Source: Octopus vulgaris (taxonomy: Eukaryota). From it: a DNA stretch of 64,000 nt. The stretch lies in assembly GCA_951406725.2 (NCBI GenBank), contig OX597817.1:103168001-103232000 (forward strand), written 5' to 3'. Made by a program: the position numbers. Positions 39,001 to 63,000 of the stretch are shown in pieces; the first letter of the stretch is position 1; each line of letters begins with the position of its first letter.

Positions 39001-42000
39001 CTTTCGCATGTGCGAATAAAATCGGGCATAAAAATTCCTTCAGATACCCCGAAAATAGGACGAAGACCAGCCTGGCAAAATATGTCTGGGAATTAAAAGA
39101 AAAAGAAACCCGGCCTTTCAACGTGACATGGAGTATTTTAGATAGAGCTGCACCTTACTGGTACGGTGCACATGAAAGACCCATCAAATGTGATTTACGC
39201 CTGCTGGAAAAATATTTTATTTTATTCCAGGACAATAACTCTTTAAATCAAAGACGTGAACTCTTGAATTCCTGTAGACACGCAGCTAAATTTAAAATGT
39301 CGGCTAGCAATATACCATATGGATAGTGTATATTTTTTGATTCTTGGATTAGTTTTTAAACACACTGTTGGATTTGTTTCTTATTATACATGATTTATTT
39401 CGCATCGCAAAGTTATTGTATATATTTCGACATATTTCTCAAGAAAAACCTTCGACTGTTATATGCAAATATTATTTTCTTACTCTTTTACTCTTTTACT
39501 TGTTTCACTTATTTGACTGCGGCCATGCTGGAGCACTGCTTTTAGTCGAACAAATCGACCCCGGGACTTATTCTTTGTAAGCCCAGTACATATTCTATCG
39601 CTCTCTTTTGCCGAACCGCTAAGTGACGGCGACGTAAACACACCAGCATCGGTTGTCAAGCAATGCTAGGGGGACAAACACAGATACACAAATATACACA
39701 TACATATATATATATATATATATACATATATACGACGGGCTTCTTTCAGTTTCCGTCTACCAAATCCACTCAAGGCTTTAGTCTGCCCTAGGCTATAGTA
39801 GAAGATGCCACGCAGTGGGACTGAACCCGGAACCATGTGGTTGATAAGCAAGCTACTTACCACACAGCCACTCCTTTTTATTTTATTTTATTTCATCTTA
39901 TTGTACTTTATAAACTCATTTTAATCGTTTAATTTGTAGATAATTCGATACAGGGTGTTCTATTTTGCATGTCTTTTATCTGAATTTTATTATTATGCAC
40001 TCAACGATTTAAAAAAAAGTGTTGTTTGTATATATACGTCAGGACCTAGACATATTTTCCTAGTGGAGTGATGAAACGTCGGTTAGTGAGATAAACTTTA
40101 TGGAGGGAGATGAAGTTTGGCTATATAATCCCCCAGCGGAAGCTGCAGAATGTATGGGAAGGACCCTATACTTTGATGAATCACCTGTCCGACATGACGT
40201 ACCAGATTCGAGGAGGCTAGAGGTCTCGTCCAAAAATTGTGTATGTGAACTGCCAGTAGAAGTACTATGCGCCTGGCCAGCTCAGCTGGGACCTTTCTGG
40301 GAGGTTAGACCTATCTATTGATGAAGTTACCAGGGAAGACTAAGGAGAAGAAGTGCAAGAGCAAGAGAGTCATCGTAAGGACTGAAGTTATAAATGTATA
40401 TTTTTGCCGGGTCGACAAAGATCTAGGGAGGAGGTGGTGTTAAGAAGGAGAAATAATGTTAATGATCACGTGAGTGATACGAAGCTTGCTGCACGTTTCT
40501 TTTCTGGGCTTCTTTGTCGTGAGATGGACGACTTGAACAGGTGAAGGAACACACAGTGTCAGTTGGCAACGTAAAGAACGCGGGATGTCAGTTGGCAACG
40601 TAAAGAACGCGTGGTGTCAGTTGGCAACGTGAAGAACGCGGAATGTCAGTTGGCAACGTAAACAATACAGTGTAGTGTGAAGTTGGCAATAAAGACAGTC
40701 GGTGTAAAGATGCGATGTAATCAGTCGAAGTGAACCCTGGCGATGAAAAACCACATTACACAAAACATCCAGTCGGGTCCGACTACTTCTTCAACTCTAA
40801 GCAAGTTCGCTTGCTGGGCTGGCCTGCTGTTTCCTAGCTGCTGACTTGACTGTTGGAGTCGTGTTCGTGTCAGGAGGTCGCAATAATTTTAGGCATTAAA
40901 TAGATTTAAAAACATTTCAAGTTATTTTCGTAACTGAATTTAAGCTTTATTGAAATGCATATTTGATTTTTAAATTTGAATGTTATACGTTGCTTAACAA
41001 TCATGTTGTGAATAATAAACAGTTTAATACACTTCAAATGTTAAAGATCAATAAATAGTTTAACATCCAAATCCAAGTGAAGATTTTAATTATTCAAATA
41101 AACTGGCAACGACACTTGCTGATTGTTACGTTTGAATGACGCAATCAACTGAGAAATTTTTGTGGTTTTCACCACTTCACACTTCACTATACTTTCTAAA
41201 CAAGCAAGTTTCGTGTAATTTTGCAGAAGAACGACCATGGATTTTTCAGATGTTGTTAGAAATTTAAGAAATGTATATGAACATGAAAGACGACAGAAGA
41301 AAGTCCGTAATTATTTTCGAGATGGTCACCATAATTTTCAGCCTGAAGATCGTAAGGCTGTGGTCAACTGGATGATAGCATGCGCAGATAATTGGTCCAG
41401 TGTTTTGGATGTCATCCACCTATCAGTTGCATTATTTGACTTATTCCTGTCTTCTAGAAGATCACCGCCGATTTCATGCGAAAAACTGCAATGTGTCGGA
41501 GCTATATGTCTTAGAATTGCTTTTGACACGATATATAATCGTGTAACCGATGAGGGTCTGGAAATTATTACTATGACTTCGAAAGTCGACCCAGAGTCTT
41601 CTTTAGATGAGCTTCATAGAATGTACGTTTTGGTTTCTAAACGTTTCAATGGTAAAACGTTTTTTGTTACTCCATATGTCTTCCTTTCGTATTACCATAT
41701 TATTCTCAAATTGAAACCTCGTCACGATTTGCATAGTATGACCAATTATTTATTGGAACTAGCATTATATGATGACTTTCTTAGCCTAAAAAATTACTTT
41801 AAACCAAGTCTTGTAGCGGCAGCTGCTCTTTATACGGGGATAATTGTCTTTGACTTCCACACGAGATGGTTTAAGGATTTGTCAATTCTAACACCGTATA
41901 ATGGAAAGGAGGAAGACATGCTAATTGTTCATGAACGCATGATTTTCTTATTAAAAACAGTTTATCTTGAACCAAGGGAACATACAACACAGGCAAGATA

Positions 42001-60000: not shown

Positions 60001-63000
60001 TGTATGTATGTATGTATGTATGTGTGTGTATATGTATGTATGTATGTATGTATGTATGTATGTATGTGTGCGTATATGTATGTATGCATGTATGTATGTA
60101 TGTATGTATGTATGTATGTATGTATGTATGTATGCATGTATATGTGTGTATGTATGTACGTATGCATGCATGTATGTATGTACGTACGTACGTGTGTATA
60201 TATGTATGTATGCATATATGTTGCTTAAATACATACATTTGCATTTGAGAAACTTTGCAAATAAGTTAGAATTATGATTTGTGTGTTTTATAGGCCCAAA
60301 TATCATAAAGGTTATGCTTTGCAACTTTATTATGATAGTTTTGGGCATTAAATAGATTTAAAACATTCCATGTTATTTTCGTAACTGAATTTAAGCTTTA
60401 CTGAAATATATTCATTTTTAAAATTTTAATGTTATATATTGCTTAACTATCATATTGTAAATAACAAACAATTTAATACACTTCAAATGTTAAAGAACAA
60501 TAGTTTAATATCCAAATACAACTGAAGATTTTAATTATTCAAATAAAATAGAACGACATTTACTGATTGTTACGTTTGAATGACGTAATCAATTGATAAA
60601 TTTTTGAGGGTTTCGCCGCTTCACCTCTCGCTATACTTTCTAAACAAGCAAATTTCGTTTAATTTCACAGAAGAACGACCATGGATTTTTCAGATGTTGT
60701 TAGAAATTTAGGCAGTATATCTGAAATGGAAAGACGACAGAAGAAAGTCCGTAATTATTTTCGAGAAGGTCGCCATATTTTTTCTCCTGAAGATCGTAAG
60801 GTTGTGGTCAACTGGATGATATCATGTGTAGATTATTACTACGGTCTTATGGATATCTTACACCTATCTGTTACATTATTTGACTTATTCTTGTCTTCTG
60901 AAAAGTCACCGCCGTTTTCACGCGAAAAAATGCAATGTGTTGGAGCTATATGTATTAAAATTGCTTTTGACACATTATATAATGCTAAAACAGATGAGGG
61001 TTTTGCAATTGTTGCTATGACATCCAGAGTCGACCCAGAGTCTTCTATAGATGAGCTTCGTAGAATATATATTTTGGTTATTAACCGTTTCAGAGGTAAA
61101 ACGTTTTTTGTTACTCCTTATGTCTTTCTTTCGTATTACCATATTATTCTCAAATTGGAACCCCATCACGATTTGTATAGTATGACCAACTATATATTGG
61201 AACTAGCGCTATATGATGACTTTCTTAGCGTAAAATGTTACTATAAACCAAGTCTTGTAGCGGCAACCGCTCTTTATACGGGGATAATTGCACTTGGCTT
61301 CCACACCAGATGGTTTGATGACTTGTCAGTTCTGACAGGGTATAATGGAGAGGAGATAAACATAAATGATGTTCATGAACGCATGAAATTCTTATTAAAA
61401 ACAGCTTACCTTGAACCAAAGATACATTCAACACAGGCACGTTACTATTTGCAAGAGAACAACTATATGAGCACTTTTGACTATTCGCACCTTCGTTATC
61501 ATGGTAATTAATTAAAGTTTAAAAAGTCTTGTGGGTTCTCTTCTGTTTGGCTTTTACTTTTCAATCCCTTCAATTTTGTTACAATTGATTTCAAATTTGA
61601 TGTGTTGATGTAGTTGTGCATGTTAATTATGGAGATGAAACTCATTTTTGCCATAAATTAATCGATAAAAAGTTTAATAGCTCTTTATAATTTGCTTAAA
61701 CGCCAAGCCTAAGCACTAAGTCTAACCCTGAACCCTAATTCTAACCTTAAACTTTAACGCTAATCCCTAACTCTAGCCCTAAACTCTAATTGTAACTTTG
61801 AAGCTCAACCTTAAATTCTAACTTTAACTGTGCGCCCTAAGTCTAACCCTACTTCCCAACCATAAACTCTAACTATAACCCTAGTGTATATCAAACTTTC
61901 GTTTTTGACTTTTCGCTTTTAATTGTTTACATGGTCCGAACTACAGTAGAACAGTTTGTCCTTCTGTAATGTTTCGGAAGAAAAAAATCCATTGACGATT
62001 CTTCCTGTTCTAAATAACGTTTCACAGGACTTCATTCATTTAAACTTATGAAAAACCTCTTACAACTTTCGATATCATAATATATAGCTTCCATTTGTTT
62101 AATCAAAGTTATTACGCAGAAATTGCTAGCTTCCAAATCTTGTTTTCTGATTGGATAAAAATAATCAAACTTTAAACCGCTGTAACATTGTTCAAAAACT
62201 TTTCTGGAACAAGTAAATAACACCAAAAGACTCAACGTTAAAAATTACATCAATATACTGAATTTGAAAATTTTCATTTAATTTCAAAATTTCAAAAGTT
62301 TAGCGCCAGACAGAAAAGATCCATTTTGTAAGAATACTAAACGCAAACACACACACACACACACACGCAAACTTTATAGAGTAGTGTATTATTGAGTTGC
62401 TTCTTTTGAACTACAGTATCAGGCCATCGAAAGAATTTTTAGATATATCAAAACAAACTTTTCCCTCGTTCTGACGGGAGAATCTTTATAATAATAATGT
62501 GCCCATTATAAAAATGGCAGCAAAGAAATCAAAGTTACCACATATCCCGAAGATGAGGTTGAGATAGCCTGGAAACATTTTTGAGAAAGATGGACTTGGA
62601 AACTTTATTGTTTGAAATGCCTGATAGGCAATACACACCATACACACACACATCCACCCACACACACATACGTGGATGGCTGGATTCTCTTGTCGTGAAC
62701 GACAAATGAGTGTTCAGCAAAATAAGGCATTATCATGTTCTATGGACACGAACGCGTCTCTTGAGGCCTTGCAAACCTTTTGGCAAACGGAACAAGTTGA
62801 GGACTCAGTTTACTTGAGTGCTTGTGGATTTTTTACTTTGTGTTTTCTTGAGCGGTTGGTTAGGTCTGCTTTGCTTCGTGCCACAAAACCACAATGACTG
62901 GCAAGGTTTCCATTTAGAGGAGCCGTGTTTTGTCAGCGTGCCTTCCTGCTTCCACGAAGCCGGTCCGTGTTGGAGTCGATTTTGCCAGGTCCTGAGTTCT

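What the first reader, a model, noticed from the sequence alone, without database searches (positions are those of the whole stretch)
40887..62640. Tandem array of three atypical single-ORF cyclins, each in a duplicated ~2.8-kb cassette
Seen: three colinear same-strand paralogs (41237, 53474, 60681) with uninterrupted ORFs. Each shares ~350 bp upstream and ~1.1-1.6 kb downstream (repeat element, telomere-like array, hammerhead-like motif). Cassette spans are about 40887-43680, 52165-55918 and 60220-62640. Known: metazoan cyclin A/B/B3 genes are usually low-copy, intron-containing and slowly evolving. Inference: a lineage-specific, probably retrogene-derived cyclin family amplified by segmental duplication, which I do not recognise as a described family. 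Intact frames in two diverged copies amid decayed TEs suggest purifying selection.
Basis: partly seen in the sequence, partly recalled or inferred. Interest (0 to 1): 0.82.

Follow-up and report, generated by a model that had tools for sequence, protein, structure and literature searches.

The report
Octopus-specific tandem minimal cyclin genes
Three neighbouring copies of a short, fast-evolving cyclin-like gene found so far only in octopuses sit in this window; two are intact, one carries a stop codon, and all lack the residues that ordinary cyclins use to grip their kinase partner.

Summary
Three same-strand paralogs with Cyclin_N and Cyclin_C domains lie at 41237-42052, 53474-54292 and 60681-61511. 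Each sits in a duplicated cassette of 2.4-2.8 kb. Copy 2 is not uninterrupted: it has a TAG at codon 35. No hammerhead was found.

The proteins belong to a sharply separated family of 265-276 residues. Its named members are all from Octopus. The family forms a 100/100 clade outside metazoan cyclin A.

Members consist only of the two cyclin folds and have no N-terminal regulatory arm. The counterparts of cyclin A2 Lys266 and Glu295, which contact the kinase, are absent in every member.

dN/dS between copies is 0.66-0.81 and not significantly below 1. The frames, however, have no indels and stay open far beyond the neutral expectation. The proteins are therefore functional but evolve fast.

Tandem segmental duplication is supported. 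A retrogene origin remains untested.

I read this as a new variant of a known kind: a fast-evolving, octopus-restricted "box-only" cyclin family, possibly independent of CDKs. The sequences are in public annotation under misleading names. I found no paper on the family. Interest is moderate.

The parts
40883..43699 (+). Cassette 1 (2817 bp): about 350 bp upstream, the coding sequence, a putative short 3' UTR, then about 1.45 kb of repeat-derived sequence
   Evidence: blastn of 40000-45000 against the window; three-way MAFFT identity profile
41237..42052 (+). Copy 1: intact single-exon CDS, 271 aa, cyclin-box-only protein
   Evidence: ORF. Cyclin_N 41 bits and Cyclin_C 37.1 bits. AF2 mean pLDDT 85.5. 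Foldseek TM 0.80 to cyclin A2. No identical protein in the 5.8-billion set.
53104..55919 (+). Cassette 2
   Evidence: blastn
53474..54292 (+). Copy 2: same frame, interrupted by TAG at 53576-53578 (codon 35). The longest ATG frame starts at 53609.
   Evidence: Translation; codon comparison TAG vs CAG. The O. sinensis ortholog P0002 has Q at this position and is 95% identical.
60299..62653 (+). Cassette 3 (lacks the counterpart of 42239-42734)
   Evidence: blastn; alignment
60681..61511 (+). Copy 3: intact single-exon CDS, 276 aa
   Evidence: ORF; Pfam; 95% identical to O. sinensis P0001
42730..42935 (+). Degenerate telomere-like (CCCTAA-type) array in cassette 1, with counterparts at 55040-55164 and 61697-61872
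   Evidence: TRF row 42806-42909; repeat family D5; sequence read
42588..43340 (.). Inverted 90-nt arms (42588-42677 / 43251-43340) and a direct 140-nt repeat (42356-42494 / 42938-43069) around the telomere-like array, indicating a composite repeat element in the downstream part
   Evidence: Self-blastn
52251..53104 (+). Insertion specific to cassette 2, with an open frame (52347-53027, 226 aa) that has no Pfam match. It separates the shared (TATG)n stretch from the cassette.
   Evidence: ORF; Pfam negative; blastn cassette 2 vs cassette 3
58748..60309 (+). Upstream remnants shared with the cassette-2 spacer (58748-59033 = 49623-49908 at 79%; 60121-60309 = 52063-52251 at 88%). The duplicated unit was therefore larger than the cassette.
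   Evidence: blastn between spacers
50032..50101 (+). First exon of the public O. vulgaris two-exon model P0006 (23/23 aa). It is spliced to an AG at 53785-53786 inside the copy-2 frame and so bypasses the TAG.
   Evidence: Local tblastn; translation and sequence; 167/167 aa exact match of the second part

Best explanation
The window, very probably from Octopus vulgaris, holds a three-gene tandem array of an octopus-restricted family of minimal cyclin-like proteins.

Shown:
- Each gene is a single coding exon of about 271-276 codons. It encodes only the N-terminal helix and the two cyclin folds, which correspond to cyclin A2 residues about 186-423. There is no N-terminal regulatory or degradation arm.
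- The array arose by tandem segmental duplication of a unit larger than the 2.8-kb cassette. Transposon insertions and deletions later remodelled it. At least one duplication predates the O. vulgaris/O. bimaculoides split.
- Two copies are intact. Copy 2 carries a nonsense codon that its O. sinensis ortholog lacks.
- The frame is kept open and free of indels against strong neutral expectation, while amino acids change almost as fast as silent sites.
- The fold-stabilising Arg/Asp pair and the Trp of helix 1 are kept. The Lys266/Glu295 kinase-contact pair of canonical cyclins is missing in every member.

Inferred:
- These are functional, fast-evolving cyclin-fold proteins.
- They are not subject to destruction-box control.
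- Their canonical CDK interface is altered or lost. They would then act as CDK-independent adaptors or decoys, as cyclin F does through its cyclin domain, rather than as classical CDK activators. I put about 0.4 on the CDK-independent part and about 0.85 on the rest.
For: Three copies and their cassettes.

Family range and separation:
- 7 hits among 277 candidates, all Octopus.
- 15 hits among 3469 candidates. 12 are family members, 9 of them named Octopus (2 O. sinensis, 4 O. bimaculoides, 3 O. vulgaris) and 3 unnamed.
- 6 of 3285 hits at E<=1e-30, then a drop from 138 to 90 bits. All six are at most 269 aa although the search had no length filter.

Architecture:
- All 11 of 11 aligned full-length members start at the same Met.
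- The family profile aligns to cyclin A2 residues 186-423 of 432.

Fold: AF2 pLDDT 85.5 and pTM 0.84. Foldseek's top hits are CDK2-bound cyclin A2 at TM 0.80.

Interface:
- The HMMER pairwise alignment and hhalign against 14 canonical cyclins (prob 99.9, 229 columns) agree.
- Both put a 2-residue gap at the Lys266 position and Tyr/His at the Glu295 position.
- Per member: 0 of 16 have Lys/Arg before the aromatic residue, and 0 of 18 have Glu/Asp at the Glu295 column.
- The Arg211 equivalent is kept in 14/14, Trp217 in 14/14 and Asp240 in 15/15.
- The role of Lys266/Glu295(/Phe304), and the statement that cyclin F lacks them and does not bind CDKs, come from passages read in PMC3590450 and PMC12356897.

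Conservation pattern: it is inverted relative to canonical cyclins. Family N-fold 47% and C-fold 53%; canonical N-fold 50% and C-fold 33%.

Selection on the frame:
- 0 gap events in the 813-bp CDS in all three comparisons, against 17-20 in 1.3-1.8 kb of flanks. About 9-10 would be expected, Poisson P(0) about 1e-4 or less by my arithmetic.
- P(no stop after the observed number of random substitutions) is 0.001-0.011.

Tandem duplication: colinear spacer remnants. Orthology is copy 2 to P0002 to P0003/P0005, and copy 3 to P0001 to P0004. Relatives share one chromosome-scale contig per species.

Species: exact identity to the NCBI-named O. vulgaris model P0006 over 23/23 and 167/167 aa.
Against: - dN/dS is 0.66, 0.81 and 0.79, not significantly below 1 (Fisher p 0.054, 0.29, 0.23).
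- CDS divergence (JC 0.17-0.23) equals or exceeds that of the flanks (0.125-0.205). There is therefore no direct sign of amino-acid-level constraint among these three copies.
- One of the three copies is broken.
- I could reach no expression data.
- Loss of the Lys/Glu pair rests on alignments at about 20-24% identity and on a predicted model. No binding was tested, and a divergent interface could still bind a CDK.
- The Phe304 column is hydrophobic or aromatic in 7 of 18 members, all from the other subfamilies.
- Taxonomic restriction rests on named hits only. Five or more relatives are from unnamed records whose taxa I could not learn (unavailable). No cephalopod genome DNA could be searched.
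- The family sits on a very long stem (2.09 changes per column), and the tree tool flagged possible long-branch attraction.
Confidence: 0.6

Rival explanations
1. They are still classical CDK activators: non-degradable A/B-type cyclins with a re-modelled CDK interface, used in a specialised cell cycle such as meiosis, cleavage divisions or endocycles.
For: The best sequence and structure matches are CDK2-bound cyclin A2 (64 bits; TM 0.80). The N-terminal helix, the Arg/Asp pair and the Trp are kept. The Phe304 column is hydrophobic or aromatic in 7 of 18 members. A position as sister to cyclin A is not rejected (AU p 0.25).
Against: The Lys266 and Glu295 equivalents are absent in all members. 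Per the passage read in PMC3590450, this pair is conserved across cyclin A, B, E, T, D, viral cyclin and Pho80 complexes. In the family the N-fold is no better conserved than the C-fold, unlike canonical cyclins.
Confidence: 0.3
2. They are non-functional, decaying duplicates (processed pseudogenes) whose open frames are a matter of chance.
For: dN/dS is 0.66-0.81 and not significantly below 1. The CDS diverges as fast as the flanks. Copy 2 has a stop. Copies 1 and 3 have no identical protein in the large protein set. The surroundings are rich in transposon fragments.
Against: P(open frame) is 0.001-0.011, and there are zero indels where 9-10 are expected. Intact frames of the same length occur in O. 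sinensis and O. bimaculoides at 60-95% identity, and in three further subfamilies at 30-48% identity. 38 columns are invariant across 11 members.
Confidence: 0.05
3. The cassette is a cyclin gene captured by, or derived from, a virus or transposon such as a Helitron, rather than a host gene duplicated in place.
For: Viral cyclins are also box-only, intronless and about 250 aa (recalled). The cassette ends in repeat-derived sequence with inverted arms and a telomere-like array. A Helitron_like_N fragment lies at 23618-24085.
Against: Viral cyclin models match less well than cyclin A2 (best TM 0.65, against 0.80). No viral cyclin is among the 60 best PDB sequence hits shown. The cassette has no other copy in the 64-kb window. 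The spacers keep colinear remnants, as expected for tandem duplication. Relatives cluster on one chromosome-scale contig per species. The Helitron fragment is 17 kb away on the other strand.
Confidence: 0.05

Closest known systems
Cyclin A (A2) / B-type mitotic cyclins
   Same: Two cyclin folds plus the N-terminal helix. Cyclin A2 is the best PDB sequence match (64 bits) and the best structural match (TM 0.80). The Arg211/Asp240/Trp217 equivalents are kept.
   Different: No N-terminal arm of about 170-200 residues, where canonical members carry the destruction box (that location is recalled). The Lys266/Glu295 equivalents are missing. The coding sequence is a single exon. The family lies outside the clade of 9 named metazoan cyclin A proteins (100/99), and nesting with gastropod cyclin A is rejected (AU p 0.007). 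It evolves fast and occurs in multiple copies.
Cyclin F
   Same: [quoted passage not shown] The family profile hits its cyclin domain at 37.7 bits.
   Different: Cyclin F is a long protein (chain 636 aa) said to act other than through CDKs. Its F-box is recalled. No F-box or other extra Pfam domain was found here at E<=1. The similarity is functional analogy only.
Viral cyclins (gammaherpesvirus v-cyclins, giant-virus cyclins)
   Same: Box-only architecture of similar length. Foldseek gives TM 0.57-0.65.
   Different: The structural match is poorer than to cellular cyclin A2. [quoted passage not shown] There is no viral context in the window.
Lineage-specific cyclin expansions in other animals and protists (recalled, not examined here)
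   Same: Extra, divergent cyclin paralogs restricted to one lineage.
   Different: I did not compare sequences. No paper linking such families to cephalopods was found.

Membership tests
Cyclin superfamily (Pfam Cyclin_N + Cyclin_C) | Match to Cyclin_N above the gathering score | tested here: met
   Copy 1 scores 41 bits and copy 3 scores 37.8 bits, against a cut-off of 23. The truncated 227-aa frame of copy 2 scores 22.5 bits, just below.
Cyclin superfamily (Pfam Cyclin_N + Cyclin_C) | Match to Cyclin_C above the gathering score | tested here: met
   37.1, 42.7 and 39.8 bits, against a cut-off of 22.
Cyclin superfamily (Pfam Cyclin_N + Cyclin_C) | Two tandem five-helix cyclin folds | tested here: met
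   AF2 model with pLDDT 85.5 and 12 helices. Foldseek TM 0.80 to cyclin A2 over 268 columns.
Canonical CDK-activating cell-cycle cyclin (A/B/D/E) | Conserved Lys266/Glu295 pair (cyclin A2 numbering) that contacts the loop before the PSTAIRE helix | tested here: not met
   There is a 2-residue gap at the Lys position, and Tyr/His/Phe/Arg/Leu at the Glu position. 0 of 16 and 0 of 18 members keep them. The test is alignment-based, not a binding test.
Canonical CDK-activating cell-cycle cyclin (A/B/D/E) | Binding and activation of a CDK | not testable with these tools
Cyclin A/B mitotic cyclins | N-terminal regulatory region with a destruction box ahead of the cyclin box | tested here: not met
   The protein starts 12 residues before the position aligned to cyclin A2 residue 186. 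11 of 11 members start at the same Met. An in-frame TAA lies at 41216-41218, upstream of the ATG. No longer member is among the representatives.
Cyclin A orthologs | Groups inside the metazoan cyclin A clade | tested here: not met
   The family (14 rows) and cyclin A (9 named rows) are separate clades at 100/100 and 100/99. Holding the family with gastropod cyclin A is rejected (p-AU 0.007). A position as sister to all cyclin A is not rejected (p 0.25). Long-branch caveat; the groups were named after the tree was seen.
Retrogene (processed copy) | Intronless coding sequence colinear with the full protein | tested here: met
   The continuous frames of 271 and 276 codons equal the full length of the public 272-276-aa proteins.
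Retrogene (processed copy) | Poly(A) remnant and target-site duplications at the cassette ends | tested here: inconclusive
   The only A-run (43030-43044, 15 A after gct) lies about 980 bp past the stop. It is degenerate in cassette 3 and deleted in cassette 2. The age of the family makes loss of these hallmarks expected.
Retrogene (processed copy) | An intron-containing parent gene in the same lineage | not tested
   No cephalopod genome or canonical octopus cyclin was reachable. The search with a cnidarian cyclin A listed no Octopus among its best 120.
Hammerhead ribozyme | Match to an Rfam hammerhead covariance model | tested here: not met
   No family at the gathering score in 64 kb. No hammerhead among the 11 matches at E<=10 in 40800-43800. 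Only cassette 1 was searched at the lax threshold.
Cyclin F | F-box N-terminal to the cyclin domain (recalled) | tested here: not met
   Only Cyclin_N and Cyclin_C were found at E<=1. There is no room for another domain in 271 aa.

The most novel reading that the evidence does not exclude
Octopuses carry a private, rapidly diversifying family of "pseudo-cyclins". These are stable proteins made only of the cyclin box that have given up the universal Lys/Glu grip on CDKs. They would work as CDK-independent adaptors, or as decoys for cyclin-docking partners. Tandem duplication, gene conversion and fast amino-acid turnover would be the signature of a germline or genetic-conflict role.
Probability: 0.25. 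Interest if true: 0.65.

Novelty: new variant of a known kind. Interest (0 to 1): 0.45.

Why it matters
Cyclins are among the most conserved cell-cycle regulators. A lineage-restricted family has at least four subfamilies, is stripped to the bare cyclin box and lacks the kinase-contact pair. Such a family would be a natural experiment in what a cyclin fold can do without a CDK, or with a re-invented interface.

It also matters for annotation. Public names such as "cyclin-B2-1-like" and "G2/mitotic-specific cyclin-A" wrongly suggest orthology with mitotic cyclins. The two intact copies in this window have no identical entry in the protein collection searched. The public model of copy 2 splices around a stop codon.

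The finding is purely computational. No expression or binding data were available.

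Tried and rejected
- Hammerhead motif: two Rfam scans found none.
- Viral origin: Foldseek against viral models gave poorer matches than cellular cyclin A2.
- Retrogene hallmarks: the A-run downstream is not conserved between cassettes.
- Region-wise dN/dS: the counts are too small to locate selection. Values range from 0.34 to 2.84 on 1-16 synonymous changes.
- ESM Atlas: only generic cyclin clusters (score 0.96), no closer family and no taxonomic lead.
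- Canonical octopus cyclin A for the tree: a search seeded with a cnidarian cyclin A listed no Octopus among its best 120. Two gastropod cyclin A proteins served instead.
- Literature: no paper on this family. I saw only search listings and abstracts for these. No supplements were opened, so expression tables in supplements may mention these loci.
- The bacterial/archaeal genome collection was not scanned, being irrelevant here.
- I built and searched no joined (spliced) model of my own. The public two-exon model P0006 was only located exon by exon in the window.

Full report
**What is in the sequence**

ORF listing under the standard code finds intact + strand frames at 41237-42052 (271 aa) and 60681-61511 (276 aa). 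It also finds a shorter frame at 53609-54292. That codon is TAG at 53576-53578, where copy 1 has CAG.

A tblastn of copies 1 and 3 against the whole window finds exactly these three loci and nothing else. The window has no N. All three match Pfam Cyclin_N and Cyclin_C.

**The cassettes**

Blastn and a three-way alignment define the shared cassettes:
- 40883-43699
- 53104-55919
- 60299-62653

Identity is 77-84%, and homology decays to background within 100 bp outside these limits. Cassette 3 lacks the counterpart of 42239-42734.

Each cassette holds four parts:
- About 350 bp upstream of the ATG. This part contains a conserved polypyrimidine-AG immediately 5' of the start and an in-frame TAA at 41216-41218.
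- The coding sequence.
- About 180 bp with AATAAA/ATTAAA motifs.
- About 1.45 kb of repeat-derived DNA.

The repeat-derived part includes a degenerate telomere-like array (TRF 42806-42909, period 19, 64% matches). Direct and inverted sub-repeats flank that array.

No Rfam family reached its gathering score in the window. The 11 matches at E<=10 in 40800-43800 include no hammerhead.

**How the array arose**

The spacers are mostly unrelated but keep colinear remnants in the same order upstream of cassettes 2 and 3:
- 49623-49908 = 58748-59033 (79%)
- 52063-52251 = 60121-60309 (88%)

In cassette 2 an insertion of about 850 bp (52251-53104) separates the second remnant from the cassette. The duplicated unit was therefore larger than the cassette and was later remodelled.

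The surroundings are rich in transposon fragments. Reverse-transcriptase pieces lie at 18997-19629 and 44709-45098, and a Helitron_like_N piece lies at 23618-24085.

This pattern fits tandem segmental duplication. It does not fit independent retroposition.

**Whose genes they are**

The 5.8-billion-protein search with copy 1 gave 7 hits among 277 candidates, all from Octopus.

A family profile gave 15 hits among 3469 candidates:
- 12 are family members: 2 O. sinensis, 4 O. bimaculoides, 3 partial O. vulgaris models and 3 from unnamed records.
- The next hit is a plant cyclin A at 85 bits.

An exhaustive HMMER search of 1.84 billion cluster representatives gave 3285 hits at E<=0.001 but only 6 at E<=1e-30. 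Scores then drop from 138 to 90 bits. All six are 269 aa or shorter, although that search has no length filter.

Copy 2 residues 106-272 are identical to residues 25-191 of the O. vulgaris model P0006. The first 23 residues of that model are encoded at 50032-50101 and are spliced to an AG at 53785-53786 inside the copy-2 frame. The window is therefore very probably this O. vulgaris locus, and the public model skips the stop.

Neither intact copy has an identical entry in the protein collection. The best matches are 77% for copy 1 and 95% for copy 3.

I built no joined model of my own. The public two-exon model was only located exon by exon.

**Family structure**

Pairwise identities and trees show four subfamilies of 265-276 aa. 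The window copies belong to one of them, together with O. sinensis P0001/P0002 and O. bimaculoides P0003-P0005.

Orthology within that subfamily:
- Copy 2 pairs with P0002 (95%) and then with P0003/P0005.
- Copy 3 pairs with P0001 (95%) and then with P0004.
- Copy 1 has no annotated ortholog.

The split between copy 2 and copies 1/3 therefore predates the O. bimaculoides divergence.

Differences from the O. sinensis orthologs are clustered:
- 9 of the 14 differences between copy 3 and P0001 lie in residues 11-35, where P0001 equals copy 1.
- 12 of the 15 differences between copy 2 and P0002 lie in residues 203-248.

This clustering suggests gene conversion among paralogs.

**Which cyclins they resemble**

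The family profile against PDB sequences scores as follows:

| PDB cyclin | bits |
|---|---|
| A2 | 64 |
| D1 | 45 |
| D3 | 39 |
| B1 | 38 |
| F | 37.7 |
| E1 | 29.6 |

An AlphaFold2 model built from 11 family sequences has pLDDT 85.5 and pTM 0.84. Its best structural matches are CDK2-bound cyclin A2 at TM 0.80, with cyclin B1 at 0.77. Viral cyclin models match less well, at best TM 0.65.

In a maximum-likelihood tree of 35 rows, four partial family rows were left out (P0006, P0010, P0012, P0159). The 14 family rows form one clade at 100/100, on a stem of 2.09 changes per column. Nine named metazoan cyclin A proteins, two of them gastropod, form a separate clade at 100/99.

- Holding the family with gastropod cyclin A is rejected (p-AU 0.007).
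- Holding it as sister to all cyclin A is not rejected (p 0.25).
- Both groups were named after the tree was seen, and the tool warns of long-branch effects.
- B-type references were two unnamed proteins labelled by their best PDB hit.

The deeper origin within the A/B-type cyclins stays open.

**Architecture and interface**

The profile aligns to cyclin A2 residues 186-423 of 432. All 11 of 11 full-length members begin at the same Met. The proteins are thus the N-terminal helix plus two cyclin folds, with no regulatory arm.

PMC3590450 (passage) states that cyclin A2 Lys266 and Glu295 hydrogen-bond the loop before the PSTAIRE helix. It also states that these two positions are conserved in the cyclin B, E1, T1, D3, viral cyclin and Pho80 complexes.

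PMC12356897 (passages) used Lys266/Glu295/Phe304 mutations to abolish CDK binding. [quoted passage not shown]

I numbered cyclin A2 from the printed alignment and chain coordinates. On that numbering, the HMMER alignment and an independent profile-profile alignment to 14 canonical cyclins (probability 99.9) agree.

| Cyclin A2 position | State in the family |
|---|---|
| Lys266 | 2-residue deletion; 0 of 16 members have Lys/Arg next to the aromatic residue |
| Glu295 | Tyr, His, Phe, Arg or Leu; 0 of 18 have Glu/Asp |
| Phe304 | Gly in the window's subfamily; Phe in 2 of 18 |
| Arg211 | kept in 14/14 |
| Trp217 | kept in 14/14 |
| Asp240 | kept in 15/15 |

The predicted helices fit this register.

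Conservation is also distributed unusually. In the family the N-fold is 47% and the C-fold 53% mean pairwise identity. In the canonical sample the values are 50% and 33%.

These are alignment-level inferences. No binding was tested, because no CDK sequence was available.

**Selection**

| Pair | dN/dS (Nei-Gojobori) | Fisher p |
|---|---|---|
| copies 1-2 | 0.66 | 0.054 |
| copies 1-3 | 0.81 | 0.29 |
| copies 2-3 | 0.79 | 0.23 |

Coding divergence (JC 0.17-0.23) is no lower than that of the flanks (0.125-0.205). Amino-acid-level purifying selection is therefore not shown by these paralogs.

Frame integrity is a different matter:
- There are 0 gap events in 813 bp in every comparison, against 17-20 events in 1.3-1.8 kb of flanks.
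- That predicts about 9-10 events in the CDS. Poisson P(0) is about 1e-4 or below by my arithmetic, and the three comparisons are not independent.
- The chance of no stop after the observed number of random substitutions is 0.001-0.011.

Intact frames of the same length also occur in other species and subfamilies. Together these results argue that the proteins are made and needed, but evolve fast.

**Verdict**

This is a real, octopus-restricted (as far as named data go) and undescribed but already predicted family of box-only cyclin-like genes, amplified in tandem. My preferred reading is a stable cyclin-fold protein with an altered or lost CDK interface, with about 0.4 on CDK independence. 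The main rival is a divergent but still CDK-activating cyclin (0.3).

A retrogene origin is plausible, since the coding sequence is intronless, but it is untested. The one downstream A-run is not conserved between cassettes.

I found no paper on the family (listings and abstracts only). Supplements were not opened and could hold expression data.

The following stayed unchecked: cephalopod genome DNA, RNA-seq, the taxa of unnamed relatives, and the closed metagenome and viral contig collections.

Noticed in passing
window 6493-6783 (+): A 97-aa open frame matches Pfam RMI1_C (OB-fold of RecQ-mediated genome instability protein 1; E 2.4e-08, 34.4 bits against a cut-off of 27). It is probably an exon of a neighbouring host gene.
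   Followed up: no
window 18997-20158 (+), 44709-45098 (-), 23618-24085 (-): Transposon fragments: RVT_1 reverse-transcriptase pieces (E 2.7e-24 and 2.7e-09), a weak PHD-like stretch, and a Helitron_like_N piece (E 4.3e-25) next to a 236-aa Arg/Glu-rich frame at 24662-25372.
   Followed up: partly
window 39484-39875; copies at 12259-12665, 23106-23476, 6856-7299 and 58059-58270 (-): An interspersed repeat of about 400 bp has at least five copies in the window at 70-87% identity. One copy lies just upstream of cassette 1 and one in the spacer before cassette 3.
   Followed up: no
window 41137-41144 and the aligned positions in cassettes 2 and 3: About 95 nt upstream of each ATG lies a fully conserved block that contains a CRE/ATF-like octamer (TGACGTAA in cassettes 2 and 3, TGACGCAA in cassette 1). 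That it is a regulatory site is my recollection of the motif, not a test.
   Followed up: no
copy 3 (60681-61511) against O. sinensis P0001; copy 2 against P0002: Differences from the orthologs are clustered. Residues 11-35 of P0001 equal copy 1 rather than copy 3, and 12 of the 15 differences between copy 2 and P0002 lie in residues 203-248. This looks like gene conversion between paralogs.
   Followed up: partly
window 14001-16000 and 34001-36000: Two stretches have GC of 0.48-0.50 and strong negative GC skew (-0.45 and -0.28), in a window that otherwise averages about 0.35. The first holds overlapping Pro/Ser/Thr-rich frames with no Pfam match for the one scanned.
   Followed up: no
window 40557-40662: A 29-bp tandem repeat of 3.7 copies at 90% matches lies about 220 bp upstream of the cassette 1 boundary.
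   Followed up: no
window 38480-38706, 52075-52163, 59868-60221: (TATG)n microsatellites lie upstream of all three cassettes. Those before cassettes 2 and 3 are part of the shared upstream remnant. The one before cassette 1 lies 2.2 kb away, perhaps displaced by insertions.
   Followed up: partly
window 30091-31062 (+) and 48229-48960 (-): Long open frames of 324 and 244 aa have no Pfam match. Their nature is unknown.
   Followed up: no
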